Origin: a virus
Taxonomy: Duplodnaviria > Heunggongvirae > Uroviricota > Caudoviricetes
Reading direction: 5' to 3' (one strand)
Length of the DNA: 64,000 nucleotides
Virus record (IMG/VR): IMGVR_UViG_3300045988_147489
Coordinates: 20,848-84,847 of that record
This document shows, piece by piece, positions 34,347 through 61,574 of this stretch. The position numbers were made by a program, and so were the translations under genes. The notes below the pieces were generated by a model, which searched no databases, was not told the origin of the DNA, and was given only the letters and a program-made list of their open reading frames with translations. Each line of letters begins with the position of its first letter. Position 1 is the first letter of the stretch.

Positions 34347-34829
34347 ATGGCGGTAGTTGTGAAAGCTGATTTGTCAAAAATCCCCTCTATTTCAGGAAAT
34401 AATGGTTATTCACTTCGTTGTGAGGAAGTAAAGATAAACGGTGAGTCGGCATATTGCAGCTACTCCGTTTGCCAGCACACCATTCTTGCCTTCAAAGAAA
34501 ACCGTCTTCCTCGAACTTCATTCCAGTCGTGCGCAACCGCTATCAAAGCAGGCAAATGCAAGGCGTTAAAAATGATGGTTGAAGAGATTCGTAAAGGAGA
34601 ATCTCTGTATTTCGAAGATATGACCGCGCTCATTAAGGAGGTTGAAGAACGGAATAAACAAGCCAGAACTTTAAAACGAAAACGTGACAGTGTAACGATT
34701 AATAGCATGGTTAAGAAGAGCGCCACATCACAAACAGCGATCACTGACGTGTATGCGGCGTTGCTTGAAGAAACAACAAAAGAAACACATGAGCAAATCG
34801 ATCAACATATGGAGGCAAAACAACAATGA
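34347..34829 (+). CDS. hypothetical Cys-containing protein
   Basis: ORF from track; stop overlaps ligase start. Confidence 0.4.
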   Translation: MAVVVKADLSKIPSISGNNGYSLRCEEVKINGESAYCSYSVCQHTILAFKENRLPRTSFQSCATAIKAGKCKALKMMVEEIRKGESLYFEDMTALIKEVEERNKQARTLKRKRDSVTINSMVKKSATSQTAITDVYAALLEETTKETHEQIDQHMEAKQQ

Positions 34830-43434: not shown

Positions 43435-45543
43435 ATGTCTAAAAAACGTTCCATCAAAGAGGTTCAGGACTTCCGTGACAGTGTAAAACGAGTAGTCGCT
43501 CTCCTTTCAGGTAAAAACATCCCTGTTGCAGAACGAGGGGACGACGCTTATGTACGCTATAACGATGATGGAGAGCCAATTCTCGTAAACATCCCATCAA
43601 TCCCGGATAACGCAACACCGGCATTGATGAATGCTGTGCGCGGATTTCTCGATCATGAGGTTGCTCACATTTTGTTTACCGATATTCGTGTGTCCAACAA
43701 AATGAGAGAAAAAGGACGCGTTCCTTCCTGGTCGCTATGGAATGCCTTAGAAGACGTGTTCATCGAGCGAAAAATGGGTCAGGTCTTTAACGGAACAAGA
43801 CGTAATCTGATGGCAACTCAGCGCCTTATAATCGAAAAAGTCTTTAAACCAAAGGCTTCAGAGGCTATTGCTTATTGTGGCAAAGATCAGCGCGCGCTTT
43901 TTCTAAACTTCTTTCTCTGTCCGGTTGTAAGAGCCTGGGATGGCCAAGCACCGTTCGTAGATTTCATGGATGAATACTGGCCTGTCATTGAGAAACCAAT
44001 TTCATTATTAAAAGAACATGGTATCGATGTGGCCGTGCGTAACATGTCTTGCACCGAGGATTGTGTAAAGGTGGCTGCGACCATAGCTAAGATCCTCAAA
44101 GACACTGAAAGTGAAAGCAAAGGTAAGGAGTCAGCTCCGGGAAAAACTTCCGATCCTTCAGACGCTGACCAGACGGATGCCTCTGGAGAAAACAATGAAG
44201 ACAACGAAGATCATGAGACACCCTCATCGTTAGATAATCACAAATCTATCGAATCAGAATCACATAGTAAGCACAAACATGATAATAACGACAGCGATGA
44301 TTCAGATAATTCTGAATCATCAGAAACAATATTCGATGATACAGAAAATGATAAAGAGGTATCAGATTCTGATGCTTCTGATAACGCGGCGTCAGAATCA
44401 TTAACCGCTGACCACGAAAAAAGAAAAACGACAGAAGACGGCTCTTCAGATATCCCAACTCCGTCAAAAATGAGTCTGGAAGAGGCTTTAGAGGAGCTGG
44501 ATAGCATAGAAGATGAAGTCGGAGGCATGACAGAAGATGCTCTATCCGAAACGATTAAAAGCGAGTTAACAGAAAGCTCGAAAAGCGAATACAGGCCATA
44601 CAATCGCTCATACGACTTCATCGGCTCGATTGATCAGGCAGAAGCCCATATCAAACGGCTTATTAAAACATTCTCCGATATTGATTTGGGAGGATATCCA
44701 ATCAGCCGCTATCGCATCGTTCCTGAAGGCAACCAGCTCTTCGACAAATATATTGAAAAGCATCTTTCGTCAGGTGTTTCGTCGACGCTGGCAAAAGACC
44801 TGGAGCGAGCAATAGCAAGCAGAAACAGAGTTCAGTTTATACCGGGCCAGCGTCGGGGGCGCATTCATGGTTCTAGTATCTACAGATTAGCAATGAATGA
44901 TGCTCGCGTGTTTCGTAAAAAAGAAGAATCTAAAGCCGTTAACGCCTGTGTTCAACAAGTGATTGATTTATCAGGTTCAATGAGTGGTATAACGATTAAA
45001 CTGGCTCTTGCAAGTGCATATACCATCGCCGATGCCCTTGATCGAATAAATGTTCCCAACATTATCACCGGCTTCACTACATTTGGTAGTCATATGGCGG
45101 CAGGAGAACTTAAGGCTGTCAAGTATGAGTTCTCTCGCTTTGAATCTTTAATGCTACCTATCATCAAAAATTGGAATGAAAAGGTAAATTCTCGCGAAGT
45201 TCGCTCACGTATGGGGTGCGTAGGCTACACATTCCCACTTCTTAATAACGTGGATGGTGAAAGCATAGCCAGCCTTGCATCGTTATTTTCCGGTCGCTTG
45301 GAGGACAGGAAGATCATGCTTGTTCTGAGTGATGGCGCGCCGTGGGCTGTTGGGAGAGGTTTTGACGCTCATTTGCGTTCAGTTGCGAAGCAAATTGAAA
45401 CGCAGACTGATATTGATTTGATGGCAATTGGCATCATGACTGACGCACCGGAGAGATTTTACTCAAATCATGCCCTGGTAACGAGCGTTGATAGTCTTGG
45501 TTCATCTGTAGTTACTGAACTATCTCGTATCATTTTAAAGTGA
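43435..45543 (+). CDS. von Willebrand factor A domain protein with long acidic Ser/Asp-rich linker (CobT-like architecture)
   Basis: MIDAS motif VIDLSGSMSG; low-complexity acidic region about aa 230-370. Confidence 0.65.
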   Translation: MSKKRSIKEVQDFRDSVKRVVALLSGKNIPVAERGDDAYVRYNDDGEPILVNIPSIPDNATPALMNAVRGFLDHEVAHILFTDIRVSNKMREKGRVPSWSLWNALEDVFIERKMGQVFNGTRRNLMATQRLIIEKVFKPKASEAIAYCGKDQRALFLNFFLCPVVRAWDGQAPFVDFMDEYWPVIEKPISLLKEHGIDVAVRNMSCTEDCVKVAATIAKILKDTESESKGKESAPGKTSDPSDADQTDASGENNEDNEDHETPSSLDNHKSIESESHSKHKHDNNDSDDSDNSESSETIFDDTENDKEVSDSDASDNAASESLTADHEKRKTTEDGSSDIPTPSKMSLEEALEELDSIEDEVGGMTEDALSETIKSELTESSKSEYRPYNRSYDFIGSIDQAEAHIKRLIKTFSDIDLGGYPISRYRIVPEGNQLFDKYIEKHLSSGVSSTLAKDLERAIASRNRVQFIPGQRRGRIHGSSIYRLAMNDARVFRKKEESKAVNACVQQVIDLSGSMSGITIKLALASAYTIADALDRINVPNIITGFTTFGSHMAAGELKAVKYEFSRFESLMLPIIKNWNEKVNSREVRSRMGCVGYTFPLLNNVDGESIASLASLFSGRLEDRKIMLVLSDGAPWAVGRGFDAHLRSVAKQIETQTDIDLMAIGIMTDAPERFYSNHALVTSVDSLGSSVVTELSRIILK

Positions 45544-45638
45544 ACAAAACAGCCTTAATGATAAGTTACTACTTACGATAGATGATGATATATTTATATA
45601 AGAAGTTGAACGCTCATTAGAGAACAAAGGAAAAACGC

Positions 45639-46874
45639 ATGACGACTACTGCACTGCAAAATGAAAAAAATCCTTCTGATTACCTTGTTTGCAAGTGGTG
45701 CGGCAAATCATTTCACTATTTTAAGTCCCATGTAGCCAATGGTAATTGCGAGGGCATTCCTGAGTCAGTAAAAGATGCCGATCCTGACACCGTACTGAAA
45801 ATGTACACAACGCAGTTTCCAGATGAACCAACGCTATCGAAAAAGGCACTTGATGCAATTCAAGCTAAACGTGCCGAGCAAAAAAGCGAAATGGCCAAAT
45901 CTTCTGGCTTGACCAGTAGCCCTGGCTACACAGGCACAGTTGAGTACAAGATGGATCTGGTCGCAGCTCACGAACTGCTAAACGTAACGGTGGAAGAACT
46001 CGGAACAAAACGTGGGACGCCGCTCATGGTTAGCGTCAACGTCAATACGCCGTATCCAGAGTTCGTTCCCGAAGTGAAGAAAGGCTACGTATATGGCGAC
46101 TTCGAACTGATCAAAGATATTTTCATGATGCTTGAACTTGGCATACCTGGCTATTTGTGGGGTCATGCAGGAACAGGCAAATCGTCATTGCCTACACAGC
46201 TATGTGCTTTGCTCAATCGTCCGTTGATCCGTGCCCAACATACAGCATCAATGGAAGAGGCACATGTTACGGGGCAAATTCTGGCGCGTGATGGCTCTAC
46301 GTATTTCGAACCTGGCTTGCTTGCGCTCGCAATGAAGCATGGCTGGGTTTACCTCGCGGATGAATACGACTTTGCGTTTCCACAAATTCTTGGCGTGTAT
46401 CAGCCAGTGCTGGAAGGTGAAGCGTTGGTCATCAAAGAGGCAACTCCAGAATGGCGTCGCATTACTCCGCATGAACGGTTTGCTTTCATTGGCACTGGCA
46501 ACACGAACGGATCTGGTGATGAAACCGGCTTGTACCAGGGTACAAACATCCAGAACGCCGCGAACTTTTCGCGTTTTGGCATCGTTTCGAATGTGAAATA
46601 CATGAGCAAAGACGCAGAGATCAACATGTTGACAAATGCAGGCATCGTGGATGAATACGCTGAAAAGATGGTTAAGTTTGCCGGTATCGTTCGCGATGGA
46701 TACGAAGAACACCTTATTAGTCAGCCAATTGGCCCTCGTGAACTTTTGTTGTCGGCCAAGATTGGAATGATGCGAGGCGACTTTGTGACAGGTATTGAGC
46801 GTTCTTTCATTAACAAACTCCCTTCAGCTTCTGCACAAGCGGCTCGTGAAGTTGTTCAAAAAATATTTGGTTAA
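45639..46874 (+). CDS. AAA+ ATPase (MoxR/CobS-like) with N-terminal Cys cluster
   Basis: Walker A GHAGTGKSS, Walker B VYLADEYDF; CxxC...C..C near N-terminus. Confidence 0.65.
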   Translation: MTTTALQNEKNPSDYLVCKWCGKSFHYFKSHVANGNCEGIPESVKDADPDTVLKMYTTQFPDEPTLSKKALDAIQAKRAEQKSEMAKSSGLTSSPGYTGTVEYKMDLVAAHELLNVTVEELGTKRGTPLMVSVNVNTPYPEFVPEVKKGYVYGDFELIKDIFMMLELGIPGYLWGHAGTGKSSLPTQLCALLNRPLIRAQHTASMEEAHVTGQILARDGSTYFEPGLLALAMKHGWVYLADEYDFAFPQILGVYQPVLEGEALVIKEATPEWRRITPHERFAFIGTGNTNGSGDETGLYQGTNIQNAANFSRFGIVSNVKYMSKDAEINMLTNAGIVDEYAEKMVKFAGIVRDGYEEHLISQPIGPRELLLSAKIGMMRGDFVTGIERSFINKLPSASAQAAREVVQKIFG

Positions 46875-46876: not shown

Positions 46877-47080
46877 GTGCGTAAAGGATGTTTCGGCTCT
46901 CTTATCGCTGCTTCTGAAACTGGTAAGGCTTGTCTGGTGTGTCCAGACAAGCCCGATTGTCACCAATCAGCAAAAGAAGTTGCGATTTCGATGCATGGGA
47001 AGTTCGTAGGCTTCCCCAATGACAAAATCAAAAAAACCAGAAAGGTAAAAACACATGAAGGCACTGATGGTTCGAACTGA
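46877..47080 (+). CDS. small Cys-rich hypothetical protein
   Basis: 67-aa ORF with GTG start, overlaps polymerase start; weak. Confidence 0.2.
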   Translation: MRKGCFGSLIAASETGKACLVCPDKPDCHQSAKEVAISMHGKFVGFPNDKIKKTRKVKTHEGTDGSN

Positions 47081-50000
47081 CTTCTCACTTGGGGAGTCGG
47101 CTTTAAAAGCAGAAAACGCGGTGAAGATTGCCAGAGAAGCTGGCTACACCGCTGTAATTTCAGCAGATAGCATGAATATTGCGAGCGTTATTCCACTACA
47201 ACGTGCCGCTGGTGACGACATGGCGGTTATTTGTGGTGTGAAACTAAACATTGTTGATGATCCCACATACGAGCACCGGGTTAAACTTGCTAAAGAATCT
47301 ATGAGATGTATGGAATCATTAGAGCGGGGACGTAACTACTCGTTTACCGCTCTAATTAAAAATGAGCAAGGATATCGCGACATCTGCGAACTAATGACGG
47401 TGGCCAACACACGAGAACAGTTCTACTTTGTACCGCGTCTCTCGCTCGAACAGTTGGTTTCTACATATGCCAAAGGCAACATCATCCTGCTCACTTCCGA
47501 CATCGATAGCGTGTTCCAACGCAACGATTTTGCAAAAATCACAAGCTCACTGATTACAGCGGGCGGGAAAGACAACTTCTATAGCGTGGTTTATCCGCAC
47601 CCTACCCCATTCTACGACCAGATTAACGTCCGGGCGATGAAAGTCGCCAGCGCATTGAAAATAGAGCCAGTGGCGTTCTATCCCGCTTATTACGAATCGA
47701 TCGACGATGCAGACATTAAAGACATTGCGCACATGGTTACGAACAACATAAAAATCGACCAGCCGCATCGTCTGCGTATCCCCCACCAGCGAGATAACGC
47801 CATCAATGGTCGTCGCCATCTCCTTGAGGCGCTTAAAGCCTTCTCCATTCGCATGGATGTGCCGGTAACAGCTGCAATGGCCTCAACAACGCAGGATACC
47901 ATTATCGATGCCTGCACATGGCGCTGGCATGAATTGCCACCAGCACTGCCCAAGATGGCAGACGACGAACCTGCAACGCTGATGAAACTGGCTGTTGCAG
48001 GGCTGCGTAAACGTCTTACCACAAAAGAGTTTGGATACACACCACCTGCTTCTGAGAACAGGGTTTATGTTGAGCGGCTAAAGTACGAAATGGACACGCT
48101 GACTCGCCTGGGATTCTGTGGTTACTTCCTGATGGTGCGCGATCTGATGAATCATAGTCGTGAAACTGGCATTCCCGTTGGGCCTGGTCGTGGTTCCTCT
48201 GCCGGTTCTCTGGTGGCGTGGTGCATAGGCATAACCAACGTCGACCCAATCCGTCACGGTCTTCTGTTTGAGCGTTTCATCAACCCTGAGCGTCTCGACT
48301 TGCCGGATGCGGACTTGGACTTCAGCCAGGCACGTCGCCATGAGGTGATCGAGTATCTGAATGAACGCTACGGCGAAGATTACGTTGCAGGCATTCCGAA
48401 CTTCACCTACCTGGGCGCAGCCTCTGCACTACGTGACACCGCTCGTATTTATGGTGTGGAGTCCGCAGATATGGCGGTATCAAAAGAACTGAAGAACGTC
48501 GAGGATGATAGCCTTCCATTGGAAGAGCTGCGCGAACAACTGGCAAGTCTCGACAAATACGCAACAAAATATCCTGATGCATTCAATGCAGCCTGCAAGT
48601 TACAAAGCCTTATGCGTGGCTTTGGTAGACATGCGGCAGGGATGATCGTAGCAGGTGTTCCTCTGACAGAACGTACACCGGTTGAGCGCCGTGGTGACGC
48701 GCGTTGTATCGCATTTGACAAGCGTTACTGCGAGGCTATGGGCCTAATTAAGCTGGACGTACTTGGTCTGGCAACTCTCGATTTGCTCGATAGTGCAAAA
48801 CGCTACATAAAAGAGAACACAGGTGAAGATATCAATCTTGATGCCATTTCTCTTGAAGATCGCAAGGTGCTGGATGGTTTTGCTGCTGGGTACACTCAAG
48901 GTGTTTTCCAGCTTGAATCAGGCCCAATGCGCAAGCTGCTTAAAGATTTAGGTGGTGGAATTGAGCCAATGAGCTTTAAAACGGTTGTTGCTACGACTGC
49001 GCTCTTCCGGCCGGGGCCAATTCAGTCAGGCATGTTGGATGACTATGTTTCTGTAGCCAAAGGCTTTATGACGCCGGAATCATTACACCCCGTTCTTGAT
49101 GAACTTACCGCAGAAACAAATGGCGTGATTCTCTATCAGGAACAGACGATGAACGCGACTCGATTGCTTGCTGGCTTCACAATGGCTGAAGCTGACGGCG
49201 TTCGTAAAGCGATCGGCAAAAAAGACATGGAAAAAATGAAGAGCATGGGCGAGAAGTTCATCGTTCAGGCTCAAGCTGGCTGGATAGACGTTGAGCTGGA
49301 AGATGGCACTACACAGCGCATTCACCGTGCGGAACATTTTAAATGCGAAGACGGAACTCTGAAAACTGTCGAAGAGGCACTTGAGTACGGCGCAAAACTA
49401 CCTATAAACGCAGTACGCGTTACAGCGTCACATCCAGGGCTATCAGAGATGAAAGCGAAGGAGATCTGGACCGCATTCGAAAAGAATGGTGCCTACCAGT
49501 TCAACAAATCACACTCTGTTGCTTACTCCTTAATCAGTTATCAATCTATGTGGTTGAAAATTCATTATCCCGCGGAGTTCTTCGCTGCTGCTCTCACTAT
49601 TCTTGGCGAAGATAAACACCAGGGGCTGGTTAAAGATGCGCTGACCTATGGTATTCGCGTATTGCCACCAGACGTTAACGTGTCATCTAACCGAATCGAG
49701 ATCCGCACGCTTGAAGATGGCAGCCAGGTGCTGTATGCGCCCTTCTCTGCTGTGAAAGGGTGTTCTGAGAATGGCTGCCAAGCCATCATGAGAGCGCGAG
49801 AAAAAGTTGGCGGCAAATTCGAGTCACTGGCGCAATTCGAAGAAGCTGTCGAGAAACGTGCCTGTAATAGTCGAGTGCGCGAATCGCTGCAAAAAGTAGG
49901 GGCGTTTGCATCCATCGAGCCAGGCAGTCTGCCAGCAACTGATCCAGAGCGCCTACGCGACCAGGCTGAATTGATGGGAAACCTTGTCATAGACGCAGTT

Positions 50001-50573
50001 AAAGCCTCACGTCCGTTTGAGATGAACCCCAAACGTTCGGCTGAAATTAACGTACTCATGACGCGGATGGCGGCTGAAATGGGCTTAGGTGATGAACTAA
50101 TCCGCCCCAGCATTGGTATTAAGCCGAAAATCATGATCATTCTGGACAATGCGAACGGCAATGATGCTCGAACCGGTTACTTTATGGAGAACGGATACGA
50201 CGACTTTAAGGCCAAGCTATTGACGGCTGGAGATTTACGCATGGGCGATCTCTATGTCACAGGTGTTTGCAAGAAGGTTAAAGACAAAGAAAAAGACTAC
50301 ACCAAAGACGAGATCGGCCAGTTCACCGACTTTATGCGTGAAGAGATCAATCTGGTGCGTCCGACCTATGTGCTGACGTGTGGCAGCCGGGCAACTTCAT
50401 TGTTTAACAACAAAAACAAGCCATCCGATTTGGTCGGCAGGAAGGAGTATCTTCCAGACCTTGACGTTACTGTCTTTTACGGGTTTAACCCCAACATTCT
50501 TTACTTCAGACCTGAAGAGGGAGAACGACTAGAAGCGATATTAACCGACGTAGCAGAAACTATTAAGTCGTGA
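47055..50573 (+). CDS. DNA polymerase III alpha subunit (DnaE-like, with PHP domain)
   Basis: palm-domain signature GPGRGSSAGSLVAWCIGITNVDPIRHGLLFERFINPER...LPDADLDF; length 1172 aa. Confidence 0.85.
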   Translation: MKALMVRTDFSLGESALKAENAVKIAREAGYTAVISADSMNIASVIPLQRAAGDDMAVICGVKLNIVDDPTYEHRVKLAKESMRCMESLERGRNYSFTALIKNEQGYRDICELMTVANTREQFYFVPRLSLEQLVSTYAKGNIILLTSDIDSVFQRNDFAKITSSLITAGGKDNFYSVVYPHPTPFYDQINVRAMKVASALKIEPVAFYPAYYESIDDADIKDIAHMVTNNIKIDQPHRLRIPHQRDNAINGRRHLLEALKAFSIRMDVPVTAAMASTTQDTIIDACTWRWHELPPALPKMADDEPATLMKLAVAGLRKRLTTKEFGYTPPASENRVYVERLKYEMDTLTRLGFCGYFLMVRDLMNHSRETGIPVGPGRGSSAGSLVAWCIGITNVDPIRHGLLFERFINPERLDLPDADLDFSQARRHEVIEYLNERYGEDYVAGIPNFTYLGAASALRDTARIYGVESADMAVSKELKNVEDDSLPLEELREQLASLDKYATKYPDAFNAACKLQSLMRGFGRHAAGMIVAGVPLTERTPVERRGDARCIAFDKRYCEAMGLIKLDVLGLATLDLLDSAKRYIKENTGEDINLDAISLEDRKVLDGFAAGYTQGVFQLESGPMRKLLKDLGGGIEPMSFKTVVATTALFRPGPIQSGMLDDYVSVAKGFMTPESLHPVLDELTAETNGVILYQEQTMNATRLLAGFTMAEADGVRKAIGKKDMEKMKSMGEKFIVQAQAGWIDVELEDGTTQRIHRAEHFKCEDGTLKTVEEALEYGAKLPINAVRVTASHPGLSEMKAKEIWTAFEKNGAYQFNKSHSVAYSLISYQSMWLKIHYPAEFFAAALTILGEDKHQGLVKDALTYGIRVLPPDVNVSSNRIEIRTLEDGSQVLYAPFSAVKGCSENGCQAIMRAREKVGGKFESLAQFEEAVEKRACNSRVRESLQKVGAFASIEPGSLPATDPERLRDQAELMGNLVIDAVKASRPFEMNPKRSAEINVLMTRMAAEMGLGDELIRPSIGIKPKIMIILDNANGNDARTGYFMENGYDDFKAKLLTAGDLRMGDLYVTGVCKKVKDKEKDYTKDEIGQFTDFMREEINLVRPTYVLTCGSRATSLFNNKNKPSDLVGRKEYLPDLDVTVFYGFNPNILYFRPEEGERLEAILTDVAETIKS

Positions 50574-50580
50574 TCCAATA

Positions 50581-50610
50581 AACATGGCCTCTATGGCCAT
50601 GTTTTCTCTT
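50581..50610 (+). terminator. terminator-like hairpin
   Basis: AACATGGCC-TCTAT-GGCCATGTT then TTCTCTT. Confidence 0.5.
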
Positions 50611-50698
50611 ATCCCCTCATATCCCCTATCCTCGAACTCCTTGCCTTATCATCACAATGATATAATCAATATAAGATGATAAGTCAAAAGGAAAGCAC

Positions 50699-51130
50699 AT
50701 GATCACCGATATTTACGAGAAAATAATGTCTGATCTCGAGTTTGACCGAGACAATCTGGAGGAAGTCTGGCGTAGACAACCCCGCCTTTTAATGGAGTAT
50801 GGCTCAAAACTCGCTCATGCAGAAAGAAGTGTCGCAGAGGCAAAACTTAACCTTGAAGCTGTTGAAGCAAAGCTATACGACACAGAGCGTAAGAACTTGA
50901 GTATGAACGGTATTAAGTTCAACGAGTCTGTACTGGACGCTAAGGTTAAAACAAACCCACAGTATCTGTCTAAACGGCAGAAGTTGGATGAAGCACGGCA
51001 CATCGCAGACATATACAAACATGCTGTCGCCGCCTTTTCGCATCGCCGAGACATGATCGTTCAGGCGTCAAAGATGGCCATCGTTGAATTAGAGCGATTA
51101 GGCTCTGAACGCTTTATTACTCCCCGTTGA
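50699..51130 (+). CDS. hypothetical coiled-coil protein
   Basis: ORF with conserved RBS cassette. Confidence 0.45.
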   Translation: MITDIYEKIMSDLEFDRDNLEEVWRRQPRLLMEYGSKLAHAERSVAEAKLNLEAVEAKLYDTERKNLSMNGIKFNESVLDAKVKTNPQYLSKRQKLDEARHIADIYKHAVAAFSHRRDMIVQASKMAIVELERLGSERFITPR

Positions 51131-51247
51131 TTTTTGATAGATAATAAGTAAGTACTGATCTATCATTTAACAGCTCGAAAGAGCCACGAATGAACGAAAG
51201 CCCAACGCGCATAGCGCCATCGGCCAAATCACAACAAGGAGAAACAC

Positions 51248-52276
51248 ATGTCTAAGACATTACTTGATTTGCTTAACAAAACTCGTGAAGACATTGCCGC
51301 CAAACGTGGTAACAACGTTGATCTGACTCGCTTAAAAGACGGCGTCAACTATATCCGCATCTTCCCGAATAAAGACGACCCAAACGGTAAGTTCTTCCAG
51401 ACTTTCGGTATGCACTACGTTAAGTATCAGAACGAGGAAGGTAAAGAAGCAACCAACGCTTATATTTGTGAGCAACATACTCACGGTCGCGCTTGTCAGC
51501 TATGCGAAATGGTGATGGAAGGTCGCGCTCGTCACAAGGGTAACAAAGCAATGGAAGAACGCATCGGTCAAATGCGTGCCACTCCTCGCTACCTGGTCAA
51601 CGGCATTCTTTCTGCTCGTGAGGATTTCGCAGATGCTGAGAAATGCCAGTTAATCGAGCTGCCGTCTACTGTATTCGATGATATCTGCAAAGCAATCACC
51701 GAAGACATCGCTGATGATATCGGCAATCCACTGAGCAAAGAGGAAGGCTACGCATTCCTGATTAAACGTACTGGCTCTGGTCGCGATACCAAATATGACG
51801 TCTCGCCTAAGCGTAAAGTCTACAAAGGCGATATCGAAGATAAATTCTGGAATACCCAGCATGATCTGATCGCATACGCAAATCAGGCTGATGAAACTCG
51901 TCTTCTGTCGACAGTTCGCACTATGGGTCGTCTGATTGGCATCGCTGCACCAACTGCCGCAGCATCTGCACCAGCAATTTCCTCAACCGCGAAAACATCG
52001 GCTGCGGCACTACCTGGATTTGGCTCTGTCACTGGTCATACGGAGGGTGCGACTGCTGTAGCTACCGCTCATACCCCAGCTTCTGAACCAACCAGTCTGG
52101 TTGATGAAGAAATCCTCCGTGCCGTTGAAACTGAATTTAAACCAGAAGCAAGTCCCGCTGCCGTTGCAGTATCAGTCAAAGAGTCTGAAGCAGTCGCAGC
52201 GACATCTGTAGCAGCCGCATCTGCGACGGAAGATGAAGGTCTGGATGACCTACTGAGAGAGCTGGACTCTCTGTAA
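51248..52276 (+). CDS. ssDNA-binding protein (T4 gp32-like) with acidic C-terminal tail
   Basis: His/Cys cluster CEQHTHGRACQLCE in an N-terminal segment (IRIFPNKDDPNG) that resembles my recollection of the gp32 zinc-binding core; Ala-rich linker; acidic C-terminus EDEGLDDLLRELDSL. Confidence 0.55.
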   Translation: MSKTLLDLLNKTREDIAAKRGNNVDLTRLKDGVNYIRIFPNKDDPNGKFFQTFGMHYVKYQNEEGKEATNAYICEQHTHGRACQLCEMVMEGRARHKGNKAMEERIGQMRATPRYLVNGILSAREDFADAEKCQLIELPSTVFDDICKAITEDIADDIGNPLSKEEGYAFLIKRTGSGRDTKYDVSPKRKVYKGDIEDKFWNTQHDLIAYANQADETRLLSTVRTMGRLIGIAAPTAAASAPAISSTAKTSAAALPGFGSVTGHTEGATAVATAHTPASEPTSLVDEEILRAVETEFKPEASPAAVAVSVKESEAVAATSVAAASATEDEGLDDLLRELDSL

Positions 52277-52293
52277 TCCCATTACGTGACCAG

Positions 52294-52322
52294 TAAGGCG
52301 TCTACGGACGCCTTACTTTTTG
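52294..52322 (+). terminator. rho-independent terminator (member of a repeated terminator family)
   Basis: TAAGGCGTC-TACG-GACGCCTTA then CTTTTT. Confidence 0.7.
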
Positions 52323-52336
52323 GAAGGAATGTACCG

Positions 52337-53281
52337 GTGAATTATCTCTTCGTAGATGGCAATAGCCTGGGTTATTACCACCAACAATCTGACAAATTGC
52401 ACAACGGCGAAATGGAAGTACAGGCTGCTTTCGGCTTTGTTAAGAACGTCCGTCGTTATGCCTCCATCCTCCATGCCCGACCTATGATTCTTTGGGATGG
52501 ATTTAGTGACAAGCGTCGCGACTTTTACCCGGACTACAAAGCAAATCGCGACGACGATCCTGATATGAAAAAGATGAAGGAAGGCTTTGCTATCCAGAAG
52601 CCATACATCCTCAAAATGATGACCGCGCTTGGAGTTACCCAACTCATTGCAAAAGATGCAGAAGCGGATGATCTGGCCGGGCTGCTGGTAGCCAGCATTG
52701 CACCGCAGCCAATCGTTGAACACATCTATCTGTTAACAGGCGATAGCGACTGGCTTCAGTTAGTTCGCGAAAACGTAAGCTGGGTAAGCCTGCGCGAAGA
52801 CGCCAAAAACAAGCAGGTTAATTTTGAGCAATTTGCGGAGCTGACAGGATTCGCTACTCCTCGCGCATTTTTGGAAGCAAAAGCATTACAAGGCGATAAA
52901 TCGGACAACATTAGCGGTGTTGGTGGCATTGGTGCTGGCGGTGCGAAAGAGCTGCTGCATGAATGGGGAAGTGTCGCAACGATGGTACGCGGCATCAACG
53001 ACGGCTCAATCGTGGTTGACAAAGGACGCCATAAGACCGCCTTCAACAAACTAGCGAAGAATGCCTTCAACGAGAAAACAGGCTGTCGAATGCTCGAAGC
53101 GTTCAAGAGAAACATCACGCTAATGAACCTGATTGAGACGAAGTTTCCGCCTACCGAAATCGAAACAATCAAAGGCAATCGTGACGTGAAAGCATTCGAG
53201 CAACTGTGCTACGAGCTGAATTTCCGTTCGTTCCTTGAAGACCTTGAAGTGTTTGTTCTTCCATTCGAAAGGTATTGCTAA
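52337..53281 (+). CDS. 5'-3' exonuclease / flap endonuclease (FEN-like)
   Basis: N-terminal NYLFVDGNSLGYY, LTGDSD, helix-3-turn-helix GVGGIGAGGAKELL; GTG start placed after the terminator with GGAAGG RBS. Confidence 0.7.
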   Translation: MNYLFVDGNSLGYYHQQSDKLHNGEMEVQAAFGFVKNVRRYASILHARPMILWDGFSDKRRDFYPDYKANRDDDPDMKKMKEGFAIQKPYILKMMTALGVTQLIAKDAEADDLAGLLVASIAPQPIVEHIYLLTGDSDWLQLVRENVSWVSLREDAKNKQVNFEQFAELTGFATPRAFLEAKALQGDKSDNISGVGGIGAGGAKELLHEWGSVATMVRGINDGSIVVDKGRHKTAFNKLAKNAFNEKTGCRMLEAFKRNITLMNLIETKFPPTEIETIKGNRDVKAFEQLCYELNFRSFLEDLEVFVLPFERYC

Positions 53282-53547
53282 TGCTTAAATCGATTATCAA
53301 TGGCGCTACAACCACCCCTGCCCAACTGGCAAAAGAGATTGTCTTTTATCACGGTGAGTACGCTGTCATCGCACTGCCGTCAATTCTAGGCGCTGCCGGA
53401 ATGAAAGCGACAGATCGCGAGTTTGGATTAGTCAGCGAGCAGGTCGTAAAAATCCTCGCTCGTGTATCCAGACTCCTTAACCACGATGCGATTATATTCG
53501 ACGAATCCGCCGCTTTAAAACGAATCAACGAAACAAAAGGAGCCTGA
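53275..53547 (+). CDS. hypothetical small protein
   Basis: 90-aa ORF between exonuclease and recA-like gene. Confidence 0.35.
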   Translation: MLMLKSIINGATTTPAQLAKEIVFYHGEYAVIALPSILGAAGMKATDREFGLVSEQVVKILARVSRLLNHDAIIFDESAALKRINETKGA

Positions 53548-53549
53548 TC

Positions 53550-54623
53550 ATGGCAAAAGGAAAATCCGCACTGGCACTTGCTCTGAAAAAGAAAATCGGT
53601 AGCAACGACGAAATTCAGAAAGTAACTCATTGGATTGATACAGGCTTTCCACCGTTAAACAAAGCTATTTCTGGTCGTTACGATGGCGGCTTCCCATGTG
53701 GTCGTATCGTCGAAGTATTCGGTCCTCCAAGTGCAGGGAAAACGTTCCTTGCAACAGCAGCGATGATCTCCGCTCAAAAACAAGATGGTCTGGCGGTATT
53801 CCTCGATCATGAAAACAGTTTTGACGTTGGCCTGGCTGTAGCCAATGGCCTGAACGCAGATGAGGATGACGGTCAGTGGGTATACAAGCAGCCTGATACC
53901 TTCGAAGACTCTGTAGAGTTGATCGGCACAATTCTTAAATTGGTACGTGATGAAGAGCTTATTCCTGAATCAGCACCTATCTGTATCGTGGCTGACTCAC
54001 TTGCGTCTATGGTTCCGAACTCCAAAGCCGAGAAGTTCGAAAAGATGGCTGAAGGCACTGCCAAAGACAAAGATCAGCTAAACATGAACGACAATACGGC
54101 ACTGGCTCGTGCGACAAGTGCGAACTTCCCTACTCTGGCTTTGTGGGCACGCAAATACAACGCCTGCATCATCTTCTTGAATCAGGTTCGCACAAAAATC
54201 GGTGTAATGTTTGGCGACCCTACTACGTCTCCAGGTGGAGATTCACCGAAGTTCTACGCTTCTGTACGTATCCGTCTTGGTGCATCGGTGATGAAGGATG
54301 GTAAAGAGAAGATCGGCCAGGACGTAGGCGCAGAATGCATCAAAAACAAAGTTGCACCACCGTATGGCAAATGCACCTGGAAATTCTACTTCGATCCTAC
54401 TCGTGGCCTCGACGTTATCGAATCGCTCGTCGAGTACATGCTGGAAGAAGGATACCTGCCAAAGAACGCCAGCGGGCGAGTTGAAATTGGTGACAAGAAA
54501 TACACCAAATCGCAGATCGTCGAGATGTATCGGGAGAAGCCACTGGCTGAAATCATTGCGGCTTTGCAGGCAATCGACGACCGAAGAGCAAAAGACAACC
54601 CAACCGAGTCAGTAGAAGAGTAA
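53550..54623 (+). CDS. RecA-family recombinase
   Basis: GGFPCGRIVEVFGPPSAGKTFLATAAM parallels the RecA Walker A region; AAAGGAG RBS. Confidence 0.8.
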   Translation: MAKGKSALALALKKKIGSNDEIQKVTHWIDTGFPPLNKAISGRYDGGFPCGRIVEVFGPPSAGKTFLATAAMISAQKQDGLAVFLDHENSFDVGLAVANGLNADEDDGQWVYKQPDTFEDSVELIGTILKLVRDEELIPESAPICIVADSLASMVPNSKAEKFEKMAEGTAKDKDQLNMNDNTALARATSANFPTLALWARKYNACIIFLNQVRTKIGVMFGDPTTSPGGDSPKFYASVRIRLGASVMKDGKEKIGQDVGAECIKNKVAPPYGKCTWKFYFDPTRGLDVIESLVEYMLEEGYLPKNASGRVEIGDKKYTKSQIVEMYREKPLAEIIAALQAIDDRRAKDNPTESVEE

Positions 54624-57407: not shown

Positions 57408-57941
57408 CACCGCTGACAGCATACACAATCAACTACCGCTGATAGCATATCGAGAGTCTATCTCACCGCTCACAGCATACTTTACTCGATTTTTTACCGC
57501 TGACAGCATACTTAAGAAATTGCATGAATAATGTGTCCCGGTATGGGTATAACCAGAACAAAATTACCGCTGGCAGCATACGAATGTCTGACATATACCA
57601 TTAATTACCGCTGATAGCATATCCAAACAAAAATTCCTCAATAAAACACCGCTGACAGCATACGTTCTATCAGGGAGTAGCAGGCAATAAATGCCTTTCA
57701 CTACAAGCAATCAGCGCAATAGCAATAGAATGTTAGTGAGCGCAAACCTATATGGAATGCACTCTTCGAGGTTAGTAACCACTGGGGAGGTATGACAGAG
57801 CATTGAGTGGTGATAGATGATTTACCGCTCACAGCATACGTTCATCTCACTATACCGCTGGTAGCATATCTTTAACCGTTCACAGCATACTTTTCAGAAA
57901 AATAGCCGCTGATAGCATACATTTCACCGCTGACAGCATAT
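57408..57941 (+). repeat. iteron array downstream of repA (incA-like control locus): 12 copies of about 17-bp repeat, consensus (T/C)ACCGCTGACAGCATAC
   Basis: copies at about 57408, 57434, 57464, 57495, 57565, 57606, 57647, 57823, 57853, 57874, 57904, 57925; same orientation; two clusters separated by about 160 bp. Confidence 0.8.
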
Positions 57942-59035
57942 CAAAGCAGTTTGAGACTATTGGAAAGGATCTCAATCATCTTGATATTTTCAGGCGTCAA
58001 ATTCTGCGAAAGTTCGGTTATCTTGTTGATAATGTTCTGTTTGGCATCAATTTCCCCAGCTTTCTCATCTGGTTTTTTGGGTTCGATGTCTTCAGGTTTT
58101 GGCGGTGCGACTTTGAGTTTTGGATTGCGGCTGTGAATCTGGATATAGATCGACCGCCCACGCTTAATCTCGCTGTATTCGAGATAGCCCAAATCTTGGA
58201 GAGCTTTTAAGCCGTTACGTATAGTCTGATTCTGCGAGCTGACATTCCTGCTACTCAAATTGAGTCGCGCACGCAATCGAGCAAGCGATACCGGCGCAGG
58301 CTTGGTAGGAAGACTTTCGATGAAGGTGTACAGAGCCTGTGCTGTTTCTTTGCGTGGTAGCTTATTGATAACCTTTAACTGCAAAAGAACCTTATGGTCA
58401 AAGCGATATAGTTCGGCCAGCTTCGGTTCTGCATAGAACACCACCGTATCTTTCTGCTCGTTGTAGTCCACGCTATTGATGAGGTGCACCATCAGAAGCG
58501 AGATCTTGTTAGAGCCGTCGACGTTCTTTTCTTCATACGTTCTCTGGAAAGACAGAGTTGTACGCATGATCTTCAAAAGACTGTTTGTAAGCCGGTCGCG
58601 GAGTGTTTTGCGGATCTGTGACGATGGATAGCCACAAAACTTAGCAAATTTCGTGATGCTTAACTCGACACGACCGTTAGGTTCGCCGTATTCTGCCAGC
58701 GAACGCACAACGCCCACCCACGTTTTGAAATCATGATCCATGTCGAGACGAGGACCGGTTATCTTGATATCGGAATAGCCTTCAGAACGGGCTACTTCGA
58801 GCTGGACAAGCTCCTTTGAAGCATCAATCTCATTTGGCTTGTTACGTTTACTGTATTTTGTTCCCTTAAGCGTGGGGACGAACAACCCCAGTCGCATCAA
58901 CGCAATTGGTTGGACTGTATTGTTGCTATTAGGGACAAGTTCCCCTGTGTACAATTCAAGGGAACCTTCTTCAAAGTTGTCGATGTTATCTTCTACTTCT
59001 TTGTTATTTTTACCTTTTTTATTTTTTGTGGACAT
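57941..59035 (-). CDS. repA: plasmid replication initiator RepA (iteron-binding)
   Basis: gene bracketed by iterons; start set at the internal ATG (MSTKNKKG...) because the upstream extension is translated from iteron DNA; AAAGG RBS. Confidence 0.7.
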   Translation of the reverse strand: MSTKNKKGKNNKEVEDNIDNFEEGSLELYTGELVPNSNNTVQPIALMRLGLFVPTLKGTKYSKRNKPNEIDASKELVQLEVARSEGYSDIKITGPRLDMDHDFKTWVGVVRSLAEYGEPNGRVELSITKFAKFCGYPSSQIRKTLRDRLTNSLLKIMRTTLSFQRTYEEKNVDGSNKISLLMVHLINSVDYNEQKDTVVFYAEPKLAELYRFDHKVLLQLKVINKLPRKETAQALYTFIESLPTKPAPVSLARLRARLNLSSRNVSSQNQTIRNGLKALQDLGYLEYSEIKRGRSIYIQIHSRNPKLKVAPPKPEDIEPKKPDEKAGEIDAKQNIINKITELSQNLTPENIKMIEILSNSLKLL

Positions 59036-59044
59036 GTGGACACC

Positions 59045-59147
59045 TTTGTCATTCAACCGCTGACAGCATACTTGATTTGCCGCTGACAGAATACCAAAAA
59101 CAGTTGGCAGCATACGGTGAACCGCTGACAGACTATCAATTACCGCT
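59045..59147 (+). repeat. origin iterons upstream of repA (4 full copies plus one partial)
   Basis: AACCGCTGACAGCATAC, TGCCGCTGACAGAATAC, partial TTGGCAGCATAC, AACCGCTGACAGACTAT, TACCGCTGACAGCATAC. Confidence 0.8.
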
Positions 59148-59196
59148 GACAGCATACATGAACATGGCTTCAGACCAGTCGTGGCGCGGCTTACAG

Positions 59197-59273
59197 CGAT
59201 CGGGGATCTTATTTGATCTATACAAGGATCTATCTATGGATCTCTTTATTAGGATCTATCCTGTGGATATGTG
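59197..59273. promoter_or_regulatory. origin-associated GATC cluster (six sites, mostly in GGATCT heptamers) plus DnaA-box-like TGTGGATAT
   Basis: GATC at about 59197, 59205, 59216, 59227, 59239, 59253; TGTGGATAT at 59263-59271; layout resembles P1 oriR. Confidence 0.55.
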
Positions 59274-59356
59274 AATAATTAAAACAGGCATTTACTACCT
59301 TCGGCGCACCTGGTGGGTTATCGTTGCCTCGGCTAACAATCACAGAAAAATGACAT

Positions 59357-61385: not shown

Positions 61386-61574
61386 AAAAGACTTGAACGA
61401 GGCCAGACGGTGATGTTTCACAAGCCCTACCCGCCACAAGGAAATCCCGTAGCGTTTTATCTTGGAAGGTTAACCAGAAAAGGCGTATTGAGGCGCAGAT
61501 CCTTCCCGGCGCATACGGAGTTCAGATTGAAAGAAGGTCAAAAGCTAACACACGGTATCAAAGGTGTTATATGA
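61386..61574 (+). CDS. small basic hypothetical protein
   Basis: 63-aa ORF between the nuclease and ATPase genes. Confidence 0.25.
   Translation, partial: KRLERGQTVMFHKPYPPQGNPVAFYLGRLTRKGVLRRRSFPAHTEFRLKEGQKLTHGIKGVI

What the first reader, a model, noticed from the sequence alone, without database searches (positions are those of the whole stretch)
47055..54623. Mosaic replisome and recombination toolkit on a lambda-like tailed phage
A DnaE-type Pol III alpha, a T4 gp32-like SSB, a FEN-type 5'-3' exonuclease, RecA, an ATP-dependent ligase, a DnaB-like helicase and a primase are encoded together with a plasmid RepA/iteron origin. No proofreading exonuclease or clamp gene is seen in this window. 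This combination suggests substantial autonomy from host replication and is typical of phage-plasmids rather than integrating lambdoids.
Basis: inference. Interest (0 to 1): 0.45.

Follow-up and report, generated by a model that had tools for sequence, protein, structure and literature searches.

The report
Replication genes of SSU5-type phage-plasmid

Summary
Profile searches confirm every gene named. Inside 47055-54623 these are DnaE, gp32-like SSB, FEN 5'-3' exonuclease and RecA. Elsewhere in the window they are the ATP ligase, a gp41/DnaB-like helicase, a DnaG/gp61-like primase and a Rep_3 RepA flanked by 17 iterons.

The window is 98-99% identical to E. coli phage-plasmids (CMS-2020a, PhiR41_1, about 92 complete E. 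coli plasmids), 94% to Cyrano/pLF82 and 83% to Salmonella phage SSU5. It is therefore a member of a published group.

I add four points:
- The unnamed ORF 50699-51130 has the T4 UvsY fold.
- DnaE keeps none of the PHP metal ligands. Its OB and tau-binding end is replaced by a family-4 UDG fold, a variant already reported in 2014.
- A DnaQ-type 3'-5' exonuclease lies about 9.6 kb beyond the window's end in a 99.4%-identical plasmid. I found no clamp anywhere.
- The same gene order (CobT-CobS-DnaE-UvsY-SSB-FEN-RecA-SbcDC) recurs in Rhizobium and Pseudomonas phages, so the block is old rather than a recent mosaic.

The likely mechanism is host-driven RepA/iteron replication in the plasmid state and a T4-like, recombination-primed phage replisome in lytic growth. 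That mechanism is inferred, not shown.

Novelty: already known. Interest: low.

The parts
27916..28584 (+). ParA-type partition ATPase (plasmid maintenance)
   Evidence: Pfam MipZ, AAA_31, CbiA and ParA, E 7e-14 to 5e-7. Annotated as ParA in Cyrano.
30037..30786 (+). Conserved 249-aa ORF directly upstream of the helicase; function unknown
   Evidence: phrog_2500, unknown function. No hit in Pfam, NCBIfam or PADLOC. A family profile finds nothing in the PDB. hhalign against T4 gp59 is negative.
30830..32170 (+). Replicative SF4 helicase, closer to T4 gp41 than to bacterial DnaB
   Evidence: Pfam DnaB_C, E 4e-13. Best PDB matches are the 'DnaB-like replicative helicase' chains 8due, 8dtp and 8g0z at E 5e-12, against 1e-3 for chains named 'Replicative DNA helicase'. 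That those entries are the T4 primosome (gp41), and that the latter chains are bacterial DnaB, is from my own knowledge.
32180..33433 (+). DnaG/gp61-type TOPRIM primase
   Evidence: phrog_47 'DNA primase', E 5e-65. TIGR01391, E 3e-9. Pfam DNAG_N and Toprim_2 fall below their cut-offs. PDB primase chains 5guj, 8gao_G and 8dvf_H match.
34826..36148 (+). ATP-dependent DNA ligase
   Evidence: Pfam DNA_ligase_A_M, 43.1 bits against a cut-off of 26.2.
43435..46874 (+). CobT-like VWA protein (43435-45543) and CobS/MoxR-like AAA+ ATPase (45639-46874), conserved directly upstream of dnaE
   Evidence: Pfam CobT, CobT_C and AAA_5. TIGR01650 scores far below its cut-off. The same position is kept in RHEph10 and nickie.
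47055..50573 (+). DnaE-type C-family DNA polymerase, 1172 aa. It has a degenerate PHP domain, an intact catalytic triad (D418, D420, D568), an insertion of about 45 aa at residues 741-790 and a (HhH)2 domain.
50022..50570 (+). C-terminal family-4 UDG-fold domain of DnaE (about residues 990-1172), in the place of the OB fold and tau-binding domain
   Evidence: Pfam UDG, E 1.6e-3. TIGR00758, E 2e-7. The top four PDB sequence hits are family-4 UDGs. An AF2 model with pLDDT 80 gives Foldseek hit 4zbx at E 5e-11, target-normalised TM 0.73-0.80.
50699..51130 (+). UvsY-fold recombination mediator, 143 aa
   Evidence: AF2 pLDDT 90.8. The top 19 Foldseek PDB hits are all T4 UvsY chains, TM 0.64-0.80 (query-normalised) and 0.73-0.92 (target-normalised). 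phrog_231, E 1e-4. Sequence-only tests are negative.
51248..52276 (+). T4 gp32-family single-strand DNA-binding protein
   Evidence: Pfam gp32, 224.7 bits against a cut-off of 26.8. Pairwise identity to T4 gp32 itself is marginal.
52286..53281 (+). FEN-family 5'-3' exonuclease. The true start is probably about 50 nt downstream.
   Evidence: Pfam 5_3_exonuc_N (84.3 bits against 34.3) and 5_3_exonuc (46.6 against 40). Relatives are annotated at 314 aa.
53275..53547 (+). Conserved 90-aa ORF between the FEN and RecA genes; function unknown
   Evidence: phrog_2207. An ORF is annotated at this position between the FEN and RecA genes in SSU5 and in NZ_CP083502.
53550..54623 (+). RecA-type recombinase, intein-free allele, with Walker A motif GPPSAGKT
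   Evidence: Pfam RecA, E 2e-42. PDB RecA chains match at 1e-34 and T4 UvsX at 1e-5.
57409..57940 (+). Twelve iterons downstream of repA (an incA-like control array)
57941..59155 (-). Rep_3-family plasmid initiator RepA. This is the longest ORF; the real start is probably at or below 59035, just after the upstream iterons.
   Evidence: Pfam Rep3_N, 37.1 bits against a cut-off of 22.4. Cyrano RepA is annotated at 351 aa. Sequence read.
59056..59278 (.). Origin-like region. It holds five iterons (59056-59156), six GATC sites in 59198-59256 and two adjacent DnaA-box-like 9-mers (59262-59278).
   Evidence: The GATC cluster is the densest in the window.
60256..61341 (+). SbcD/Mre11-like nuclease
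   Evidence: Pfam Metallophos. Annotated as SbcD-like in Cyrano.
61571..63121 (+). SbcC/Rad50-like ATPase, truncated by an IS insertion at 63120
   Evidence: Pfam AAA_23 and SMC_N. The intact gene is 638 aa in a relative. Homology to that relative stops at 63120. The IS is ISEc52-like.

Best explanation
The window is about 60% of an SSU5/pHCM2-group phage-plasmid of E. coli. Region 47055-54623 is the core of its conserved replication-recombination block.

Shown by tool results: the identity and integrity of the genes, the iteron origin, the UvsY and UDG folds, the degenerate PHP domain, the absence of epsilon and clamp genes from the window, and the presence of a DnaQ-type exonuclease in near-identical replicons.

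Inferred mechanism, two replication modes:
1. As a prophage-plasmid, RepA binds the five origin iterons next to a GATC-rich segment and DnaA-box-like sites. This layout resembles P1 oriR/incC-repA-incA. RepA then recruits the host replisome. The twelve downstream iterons limit copy number and ParA partitions the copies.
2. In lytic growth the phage builds its own T4-like fork:
   - a gp41-like helicase, a gp61-like primase and a gp32 SSB;
   - a C-family DnaE in place of T4's B-family gp43, proofread in trans by the DnaQ-like exonuclease encoded elsewhere on the replicon;
   - a FEN nuclease and an ATP ligase for Okazaki-fragment maturation.
   Forks are started or restarted from recombination intermediates made by RecA, UvsY and gp32. 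SbcCD resects ends, and relatives add UvsW and RuvC.

Processivity comes either from the host beta clamp or from the polymerase's own UDG-fold domain. This point is unresolved.
For: Identity of the element:
- 98-99% nucleotide identity to CMS-2020a and PhiR41_1, 94% to Cyrano and 83% to SSU5.
- 92 E. coli genomes have a place covering at least 80% of window 44000-64000; all 15 best records listed are 72-198 kb and the one opened is annotated as a plasmid.

Gene families.

UvsY fold.

Origin anatomy.

DnaE:
- The catalytic Asp triad is kept.
- None of the seven PHP ligand positions that could be aligned keeps its residue (M5, R7, E14, S39, K63, P210, Y212).
- The UDG fold is confirmed.

Proofreader in a relative: the 185-aa protein at NZ_CP083502 15423-15980 hits Pfam RNase_T at E 4e-22. 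Its sequence reads, on my inspection, as carrying the DEDDh motifs. Cyrano annotates the same gene as Pol III epsilon, and also annotates UvsW, RuvC, RNase H, RNR and ThyX.

Expression in the lysogen: in the LF82 lysogen the replisome genes are not among the Cyrano genes transcribed above background, and the plasmid sits at about 5.5 copies per chromosome (PMC9928086). This fits a lytic-phase role.

Conservation: the block keeps its order in RHEph10 and nickie.
Against: - No experiment on this element links any of these genes to either replication mode. The two-mode model rests on analogy with P1 and T4.
- No lytic origin was identified.
- The window's own replicon could not be found, so the presence of dnaQ on it is extrapolated from relatives. 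No record in the collection has its sbcC::IS junction.
- sbcC is disrupted by an IS, so this copy may be impaired in lytic growth.
- No convincing clamp-binding motif was found. The conserved QAELM (residues 970-974) aligns with E. coli RAALM (895-899), not with QADMF (920-924).
- The epsilon-like protein is only 185 aa long. E. coli epsilon is about 243 aa and uses its C-terminal tail to bind the PHP domain (my own knowledge), so the short protein probably lacks that tail. Its association with DnaE is unproven.
Confidence: 0.8

Rival explanations
1. The phage-encoded replisome (DnaE, helicase, primase, SSB) is what replicates the element in the plasmid state. RepA loads the phage helicase rather than the host DnaB, which makes the plasmid largely independent of the host replisome at all times.
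For: All replisome parts and repA lie on one replicon, and repA sits inside the replication block.
Against: - The origin has DnaA-box-like sites and a P1-like layout, which in known Rep_3 plasmids recruits host DnaA, DnaB and DnaC (plus established knowledge).
- In the LF82 lysogen these genes are not among those transcribed above background (PMC9928086).
- The same replisome block occurs in Rhizobium phage RHEph10 with a different plasmid initiator (RepC) at another position, and in Pseudomonas phage nickie. The stretch of nickie that I viewed shows no rep gene.
Confidence: 0.1
2. The DnaE is an accessory, error-prone or repair polymerase (DnaE2-like) that benefits the host or diversifies the phage. 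It is not the element's replicase.
For: It has no functional PHP domain, OB fold or tau-binding domain. It fails every NCBIfam DnaE equivalog cut-off. Plasmid-borne C-family polymerases are mostly DnaE2 (PMC3919608).
Against: - The best NCBIfam score is to the DnaE1 model PRK05673 (677 bits), against 401 bits for the error-prone model.
- Timinskas et al. class this variant outside DnaE2.
- No family A or B polymerase matched among the window proteins scanned, and none is annotated in Cyrano.
- The gene sits in a conserved array with SSB, FEN, ligase, helicase and primase.
Confidence: 0.05
3. This copy is a decaying, plasmid-only remnant that no longer makes phage. Its replication toolkit would then be evolutionary baggage.
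For: An IS3-family element interrupts sbcC. Some SSU5-like plasmids are reported not to behave as intact prophages (PMC8969562 abstract).
Against: - The replication, tail and lysis-region ORFs in the window are full length and 98-99% identical to elements deposited as phages.
- Cyrano, the close relative, makes virions (PMC9928086).
- A single IS hit in a non-structural gene is weak evidence of decay.
Confidence: 0.1

Closest known systems
Salmonella phage SSU5, pHCM2 and E. coli phage-plasmids Cyrano (pLF82), CMS-2020a and PhiR41_1 (the SSU5_pHCM2 group of Pfeifer et al. 2021, PMC7969092)
   Same: Gene content and order are the same across the window. Nucleotide identity is 83-99% over the finding. 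The repA-iteron and parA plasmid genes, the lambda-type tail tip and the DnaE-UvsY-gp32-FEN-RecA array all match.
   Different: The differences are allelic only:
- There is no HicAB or AlpA-like cassette between dnaE and uvsY.
- The recA allele has no intein.
- dnaE is unsplit.
- The gpJ-like ORF is 4054 aa.
- An IS interrupts sbcC.
Phage T4 replication and recombination-dependent replication system (gp41, gp61, gp32, UvsX, UvsY, UvsW, gp46/47, RNase H, gp30 ligase)
   Same: Homologues or structural counterparts exist here for the helicase, primase, SSB, mediator, recombinase, 5'-3' nuclease, ligase and Mre11/Rad50-like nuclease. Relatives add UvsW.
   Different: - The polymerase is a bacterial C-family DnaE with a separate DnaQ-type exonuclease, not the B-family gp43.
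- No gp45 clamp, gp44/62 loader or recognisable gp59 was found.
- The recombinase is nearer to bacterial RecA than to UvsX.
'DnaEX' variant of Pol III alpha with a UDG domain (Timinskas et al. 2014, NAR 42:1393, PMC3919608)
   Same: The architecture is exactly the same: PHP, Pol3 core and (HhH)2, then an archaeal-type (family 4) UDG domain replacing the OB fold and C-terminal domain. That paper reports it as an extra polymerase in Y. pestis and S. enterica. These are presumably the pMT1 and pHCM2 replicons; this assignment is my inference.
   Different: Nothing structural differs. New here:
- The PHP ligands and the UDG catalytic motifs are all altered.
- About 146 clusters (at 50% identity) carry this C-terminal domain.
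- Many of them are split into two genes at the same point.
P1 plasmid replicon (oriR/incC - repA - incA) and the RepFIB type
   Same: The layout matches what I recall of P1: DnaA-box-like sites, a GATC-rich segment, five iterons, repA, then a second larger iteron array, with a partition ATPase elsewhere. The P1 comparison is from established knowledge and was not run here.
   Different: There are twelve downstream iterons rather than nine. Similarity to Rep_3 is only at Pfam level. I did not compare RepA with P1 RepA directly.

Membership tests
SSU5-supergroup phage-plasmid | Sequence and gene-repertoire similarity to SSU5/pHCM2 members | tested here: met
   83% identity to SSU5 over 97% of the finding and 94-99% to E. 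coli members. Gene order matches.
SSU5-supergroup phage-plasmid | Tailed-phage structural and lysis genes on the same replicon | tested here: met
   Tape measure, gpM, gpL, gpK, gpJ and a tail-fibre chaperone domain lie at 4-25 kb.
SSU5-supergroup phage-plasmid | Plasmid replication and partition functions | tested here: met
   Rep3_N RepA with 17 iterons, and ParA.
SSU5-supergroup phage-plasmid | Extrachromosomal circular maintenance and virion production | not testable with these tools
   Near-identical relatives are circular plasmids in complete genomes. Cyrano makes virions (PMC9928086). The window's own replicon was not found.
Pol III alpha (DnaE, C-family polymerase) | PHP, Pol3 core with three catalytic Asp residues, fingers and (HhH)2 | tested here: met
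   All four Pfam domains score above their cut-offs. TIGR00594 gives 629.6 bits against a cut-off of 434. D418, D420 and D568 align with E. coli D401, D403 and D555.
Pol III alpha (DnaE1 type, as in E. coli) | C-terminal OB fold, tau-binding domain and internal beta-clamp motif | tested here: not met
   - The C-terminal domain is a UDG fold.
- All DnaE equivalog cut-offs are missed.
- The residues aligned to QADMF are NVLMT.
PHP-domain proofreading exonuclease (as in M. tuberculosis DnaE1) | Nine metal-binding His, Asp, Glu and Cys residues | tested here: not met
   The aligned positions read M5, R7, E14, S39, K63, P210 and Y212. The other two positions are a gap and a Ser in the HMMER alignment with Mtb DnaE1.
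Family-4 uracil-DNA glycosylase | UDG alpha/beta fold | tested here: met
   Foldseek E 5e-11 to 4zbx, 1l9g, 1ui0 and 1vk2, target-normalised TM 0.73-0.80.
Family-4 uracil-DNA glycosylase | Catalytic motifs (GEAPG, HPS/HPA) and four Cys ligands of the 4Fe-4S cluster | tested here: not met
   - Motif B reads NPN where TM0511 has HPS, and two cluster Cys residues align with Lys and Phe (alignment).
- The motif A position reads DNANG after strand 1. The consensus motifs are from my own knowledge.
- The Pfam and TIGR00758 scores fall below their cut-offs.
T4 UvsY recombination mediator | UvsY fold and size, encoded next to the SSB and recombinase genes | tested here: met
   The top 19 Foldseek hits are all UvsY chains, with rmsd 1.4-5.5 A over about 130 columns (1.4-3.3 A for the 16 best-fitting chains). 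The protein is 143 aa against 137 aa for T4 UvsY, and its gene lies upstream of gp32.
T4 UvsY recombination mediator | Significant sequence-profile match to UvsY | tested here: inconclusive
   phrog_231 gives E 1e-4. There is no Pfam hit. hhalign against T4 UvsY gives E 0.3. Profile and phmmer searches of the PDB are negative.
gp32-family SSB | Match to PF08804 above the gathering score | tested here: met
   224.7 bits against 26.8. BLASTP to T4 gp32 is marginal (E 0.07); the segment it aligns spans the H...C-x2-C stretch of both proteins, which I take from my own knowledge to be gp32's zinc site.
Iteron-regulated Rep_3 plasmid replicon | Rep_3 initiator with directly repeated iterons at the origin | tested here: met
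   Rep3_N, 37.1 bits against 22.4. Five iterons spaced 21-23 bp apart lie upstream of repA and twelve lie downstream.
Sliding clamp and clamp loader (beta, gp45 or PCNA; gamma/tau or gp44/62) | Any ORF matching these families | tested here: not met
   No such Pfam, PHROG or NCBIfam hit came from any window ORF scanned. None is annotated in Cyrano or in the stretch of NZ_CP083502 viewed. A highly divergent clamp among the unknown 249-, 257- and 260-aa ORFs is not excluded.

The most novel reading that the evidence does not exclude
The DnaE of this phage clade may be a self-sufficient, clamp-independent C-family replicase. In this reading the catalytically altered UDG-fold domain, which replaces the OB fold and tau-binding domain, acts as a built-in DNA-binding or processivity (or uracil-sensing) module. 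This would parallel the D4 UDG of the vaccinia polymerase holoenzyme and the role proposed for the UDG-like domains of the SPO1 and T5 PolA enzymes. The CobS-like AAA+ and CobT-like VWA pair, always encoded just upstream, could then be a replisome accessory rather than a cobalt chelatase.
Probability: 0.2. Interest if true: 0.55.

Novelty: already known. Interest (0 to 1): 0.15.

Why it matters
SSU5-type phage-plasmids are common in clinical Enterobacteriaceae and can carry resistance genes, for example dfrA51 next to this block in relatives. How they switch between plasmid and lytic replication therefore matters for their spread.

The finding itself adds no new kind of system. The element, its gene content and the unusual DnaE-UDG architecture are all on record.

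The open, testable question is biochemical. How does a C-family polymerase work when it has no functional PHP site, no OB fold, no tau-binding domain and no clamp encoded on its own replicon?

Tried and rejected
- **Clamp-binding motif.** The conserved QAELM in DnaE looked like E. coli QADMF. In the alignment it pairs with E. coli RAALM, a helix upstream of the real motif, so I do not count it.
- **Helicase loader or clamp among unknown ORFs.**
  - ORF 30037-30786 has no Pfam, NCBIfam or PADLOC hit. A family profile found nothing in the PDB, and hhalign against T4 gp59 was negative.
  - ORFs 33509-34291 and 34347-34829 gave no significant Pfam match and no NCBIfam match, and 33509-34291 gave no PADLOC match.
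- **UvsY by sequence.** phmmer, profile hmmsearch against the PDB and hhalign against T4 UvsY were all non-significant. Only the fold comparison was decisive.
- **Source replicon.** No complete E. coli genome in the collection carries the sbcC::IS junction. The rest of this particular replicon could not be inspected.
- **Literature on the DnaE-UDG fusion.** A five-term search returned only irrelevant papers. The description was found in Timinskas et al..
- **Supplement of Kazlauskas et al. 2016.** It is not held, so their call for SSU5 could not be read.
- **LAGLIDADG genes in relatives.** I first assumed these sat in dnaE. In Cyrano the LAGLIDADG element is an intein in recA. The dnaE interruption seen is a free-standing HNH gene.

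Full report
**1. What is there**

The finding spans six co-oriented ORFs. Pfam assigns four of them:
- 47055-50573 is a DnaE-type Pol III alpha: PHP, DNA_pol3_alpha (E 1e-73), finger and HHH_6.
- 51248-52276 belongs to the gp32 family (E 2e-66).
- 52286-53281 has both FEN 5'-3' exonuclease domains above their cut-offs.
- 53550-54623 is RecA (E 2e-42).

- ATP-dependent ligase at 34826-36148 and a DnaB_C helicase at 30830-32170.
- A primase at 32180-33433. Pfam is sub-threshold, but phrog_47 gives E 5e-65 and TIGR01391 gives 3e-9.
- A Rep3_N initiator at 57941-59155 on the minus strand.
- ParA at 27916-28584.

The tail-tip genes are lambda-like. gpM, gpL, gpK and gpJ families all match.

**2. 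The plasmid origin**

The core ACCGCTGACAGCATA occurs 17 times in one orientation around repA (18 matches in the whole window), against 1.5 matches expected by chance in the window. Twelve copies lie downstream of repA (57409-57940) and five lie upstream (59056-59156).

Beyond the five upstream iterons lie six GATC sites in about 60 bp, the densest cluster in the window. Two adjacent 9-mers, each one mismatch from a DnaA box, follow at 59262-59278.

From established knowledge, this order is the layout of P1 oriR/incC-repA-incA: DnaA boxes, GATC segment, five iterons, repA, then a second iteron array. I did not compare RepA with P1 RepA directly.

The longest repA ORF overlaps the upstream iterons. 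The real start is probably at or below 59035. Cyrano's RepA is annotated at 351 aa.

**3. Identity of the element**

The 7.6-kb region is 98.6% identical to Escherichia phage CMS-2020a, 98.2% to PhiR41_1, 94.5% to Cyrano, 83% to Salmonella phage SSU5 and about 79% to Klebsiella relatives.

Ninety-two complete E. coli genomes hold at least 80% of window 44000-64000. All 15 best records listed are 72-198 kb, and the one I opened (NZ_CP083502) is annotated as a circular plasmid.

These elements form the SSU5_pHCM2 group of phage-plasmids (PMC7969092). Cyrano is pLF82. It sits at about 5.5 copies per chromosome and makes siphovirus particles (PMC9928086).

**4. The missing proofreader and clamp**

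tblastn with the relatives' exonuclease finds nothing in the window.

In the 99.4%-identical plasmid NZ_CP083502, a 185-aa '3'-5' exonuclease' lies about 9.6 kb past sbcC. It hits Pfam RNase_T at E 4e-22, and its sequence reads, on my inspection, as carrying the DEDDh motifs. Cyrano annotates the same gene as Pol III epsilon.

The window ends before that position. An ISEc52-like IS3 element has cut sbcC at 63120, and no genome in the collection has that junction. The presence of the exonuclease on this exact replicon is therefore an extrapolation from relatives.

No clamp or clamp loader was hit by any ORF that I scanned. None is annotated in Cyrano, whose whole record I read, or in the 46-kb stretch of the plasmid that I viewed.

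**5. Anatomy of the polymerase**

The catalytic aspartates are kept. D418, D420 and D568 align with E. coli D401, D403 and D555.

The PHP metal ligands are all replaced. The aligned positions read M5, R7, E14, S39, K63, P210 and Y212, against the His, Asp and Glu ligands of M. tuberculosis DnaE1. The PHP domain therefore cannot be the proofreader, which fits a separate DnaQ-type enzyme.

After the (HhH)2 domain the protein does not continue into an OB fold and tau-binding domain. Instead:
- The last 219 residues hit Pfam UDG at E 1.6e-3, and the whole protein hits TIGR00758 at E 2e-7, both below cut-off.
- The four best PDB sequence matches are all family-4 UDGs.
- An AlphaFold model (pLDDT 80) matches family-4 UDG and UdgX structures at Foldseek E 5e-11, target-normalised TM 0.73-0.80.

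The catalytic features are altered. Motif B reads NPN where TM0511 has HPS, and two Fe-S cysteines align with Lys and Phe. The motif A position reads DNANG, whereas the consensus is GEAPG from my own knowledge.

This architecture is already published. Timinskas et al. [quoted passage not shown] RHEph10's GenBank note also mentions the domain.

Kazlauskas and Venclovas proposed UDG-like domains as intrinsic processivity factors for the SPO1 and T5 polymerases, by analogy with vaccinia D4 (PMC3201878). That idea extends naturally to this enzyme but is untested.

A conserved QAELM looked like the E. coli clamp motif QADMF. It aligns instead with E. coli RAALM, so clamp use is unresolved.

An exhaustive search finds this C-terminal domain in 146 clusters at 50% identity. 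It sits either at the end of proteins of about 1080-1140 aa or in proteins of about 385-390 aa. The short forms are the second half of a split dnaE. In locus L005 a free-standing HNH gene separates a 787-aa N-terminal part from a 389-aa C-terminal part.

**6. The unnamed ORFs**

ORF 50699-51130 (143 aa) gave only a weak PHROG hit to UvsY, at E 1e-4. Sequence comparisons with T4 UvsY were negative.

Its AlphaFold model has pLDDT 90.8. The top 19 PDB matches are all T4 UvsY chains, with TM 0.64-0.80 (query-normalised) and 0.73-0.92 (target-normalised). The next unrelated hits reach only about 0.3-0.5. Cyrano's curators reached the same name.

With gp32 and RecA, this completes a T4-style presynaptic system.

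Other T4 affinities and contrasts:
- The helicase's best solved relatives are the 'DnaB-like replicative helicase' chains of entries 8due, 8dtp and 8g0z. From my own knowledge these are the T4 primosome, that is gp41. They match at E 5e-12, against 1e-3 for chains named 'Replicative DNA helicase', which I take to be bacterial DnaB.
- The primase matches the primase chains of the same entries.
- RecA is nearer to bacterial RecA (1e-34) than to UvsX (1e-5).

The 90-aa ORF 53275-53547 and the 249-aa ORF upstream of the helicase remain unknown.

**7. Is it a mosaic?**

The array is CobT-like VWA, CobS-like AAA+, a small ORF, DnaE(UDG), UvsY, gp32, FEN, RecA, then SbcD, SbcC and (in relatives) RuvC and ribonucleotide reductase. 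It occurs in the same order in Rhizobium phage RHEph10 and Pseudomonas phage nickie, at 25-46% amino-acid identity. The gp32 gene gave a match in nickie but none in RHEph10 at E 1e-3, although RHEph10 annotates an SSB gene at that position.

The block is therefore an old, conserved unit of a clade of phages of about 105-120 kb. In function it is a hybrid of T4-type parts and a bacterial-type polymerase.

The variable part is the plasmid cassette. Here repA and its iterons sit inside the array, between the RecA-side genes and ASCH/SbcD. RHEph10 carries a RepC gene at a different place. This agrees with the published pattern of conserved phage genes and variable plasmid genes (PMC7969092).

**8. 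Mechanism (inferred)**

In the plasmid state, RepA, the iterons and DnaA-type origin features point to host-replisome theta replication. The downstream iterons would control copy number and ParA would partition the copies.

In lytic growth, a phage-encoded fork is the most economical reading:
- the gp41-like helicase, gp61-like primase and gp32 SSB;
- DnaE with the trans-acting DnaQ-like exonuclease;
- FEN and ligase for Okazaki-fragment maturation;
- fork initiation from recombination intermediates made by RecA, UvsY and gp32, with SbcCD for resection and, in relatives, UvsW and RuvC.

Two observations fit this reading. The replisome genes are not among the genes expressed above background in the LF82 lysogen. 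The same block also occurs in phages with other plasmid cassettes, or with no rep gene in the stretch viewed. No step has been tested experimentally for this group, as far as the library shows.

**9. Verdict**

- Novelty: already known.
- The only thread with some research value is how this clamp-less, OB-less, PHP-dead DnaE-UDG polymerase achieves processive, accurate synthesis.

Noticed in passing
window 11166-23330 (+): The gpJ-like central tail-fibre ORF is 4054 aa. It has FNIII-A_GpJ and Phage-tail_3 domains at the N-terminal end, a long coiled-coil-like middle and Phage_Tail_Tip near the C-terminus. Cyrano instead has a 1575-aa J protein plus a separate 1341-aa fibre.
   Followed up: partly
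window 63121-64000; sbcC 61571-63121: An ISEc52-like IS3-family element interrupts the SbcC/Rad50-like gene after about 516 of 638 codons. No complete E. coli genome in the collection has this junction.
   Followed up: yes
window 43435-46874 (+); L010 5220-9062; L011 5678-9079: A CobT-like VWA protein and a CobS/MoxR-like AAA+ ATPase sit directly upstream of dnaE here. The same arrangement is found in Rhizobium phage RHEph10 and Pseudomonas phage nickie. The 'cobalamin' names are probably misleading, and the conserved linkage hints at a replication-related role.
   Followed up: partly
L005 2918-7170, compared with window 47055-50573: In many relatives dnaE is split at about codon 787 by a free-standing NUMOD4/HNH homing-endonuclease gene. 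The 389-aa C-terminal half stands for 1459 member sequences. Short forms of about 385-390 aa recur among distant homologues. The window and SSU5 alleles differ from the Cyrano and L005 alleles mainly at residues 675-800, around this site.
   Followed up: partly
L001 27309-29648 (Cyrano recA), compared with window 53550-54623: Cyrano RecA carries a 422-aa LAGLIDADG intein inserted in the P-loop (GPPSAGK|C...HN|T). The window allele has no intein. 'LAGLIDADG family homing endonuclease' annotations in several E. coli relatives probably reflect the same intein.
   Followed up: partly
window 28996-29763 (-): A GIY-YIG protein (Pfam LEM-3_GIY-YIG) lies between the par genes and the replication genes. 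It matches the PADLOC anti-phage defence model PD-T4-3 at E 1e-23.
   Followed up: no
window 37738-38365 (+): A cluster of four tRNA genes (Asn-GTT, Tyr-GTA, Thr-TGT, Ser-TGA). Cyrano has Asn, Thr and Ser at the equivalent place.
   Followed up: no
window 38000-42000; ORF 39465-40793 (-): The lowest-GC stretch of the window (0.39, against about 0.48 elsewhere) holds a 442-aa minus-strand ORF of unknown function (phrog_18168). It has no Pfam or PADLOC hit and looks like an accessory or moron region.
   Followed up: no
window 41389-42873: A tyrosine recombinase ('integrase') lies next to a divergently oriented HTH repressor-like gene on this plasmid-borne prophage. It may resolve multimers as Cre does in P1, rather than integrate. 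This was not tested.
   Followed up: no
L004 17115-17591 (relative NZ_CP083502): The relative's dihydrofolate reductase, in the nucleotide-metabolism block downstream of the window's end, is annotated as the trimethoprim-resistance gene dfrA51 (compare PMC12217456).
   Followed up: no
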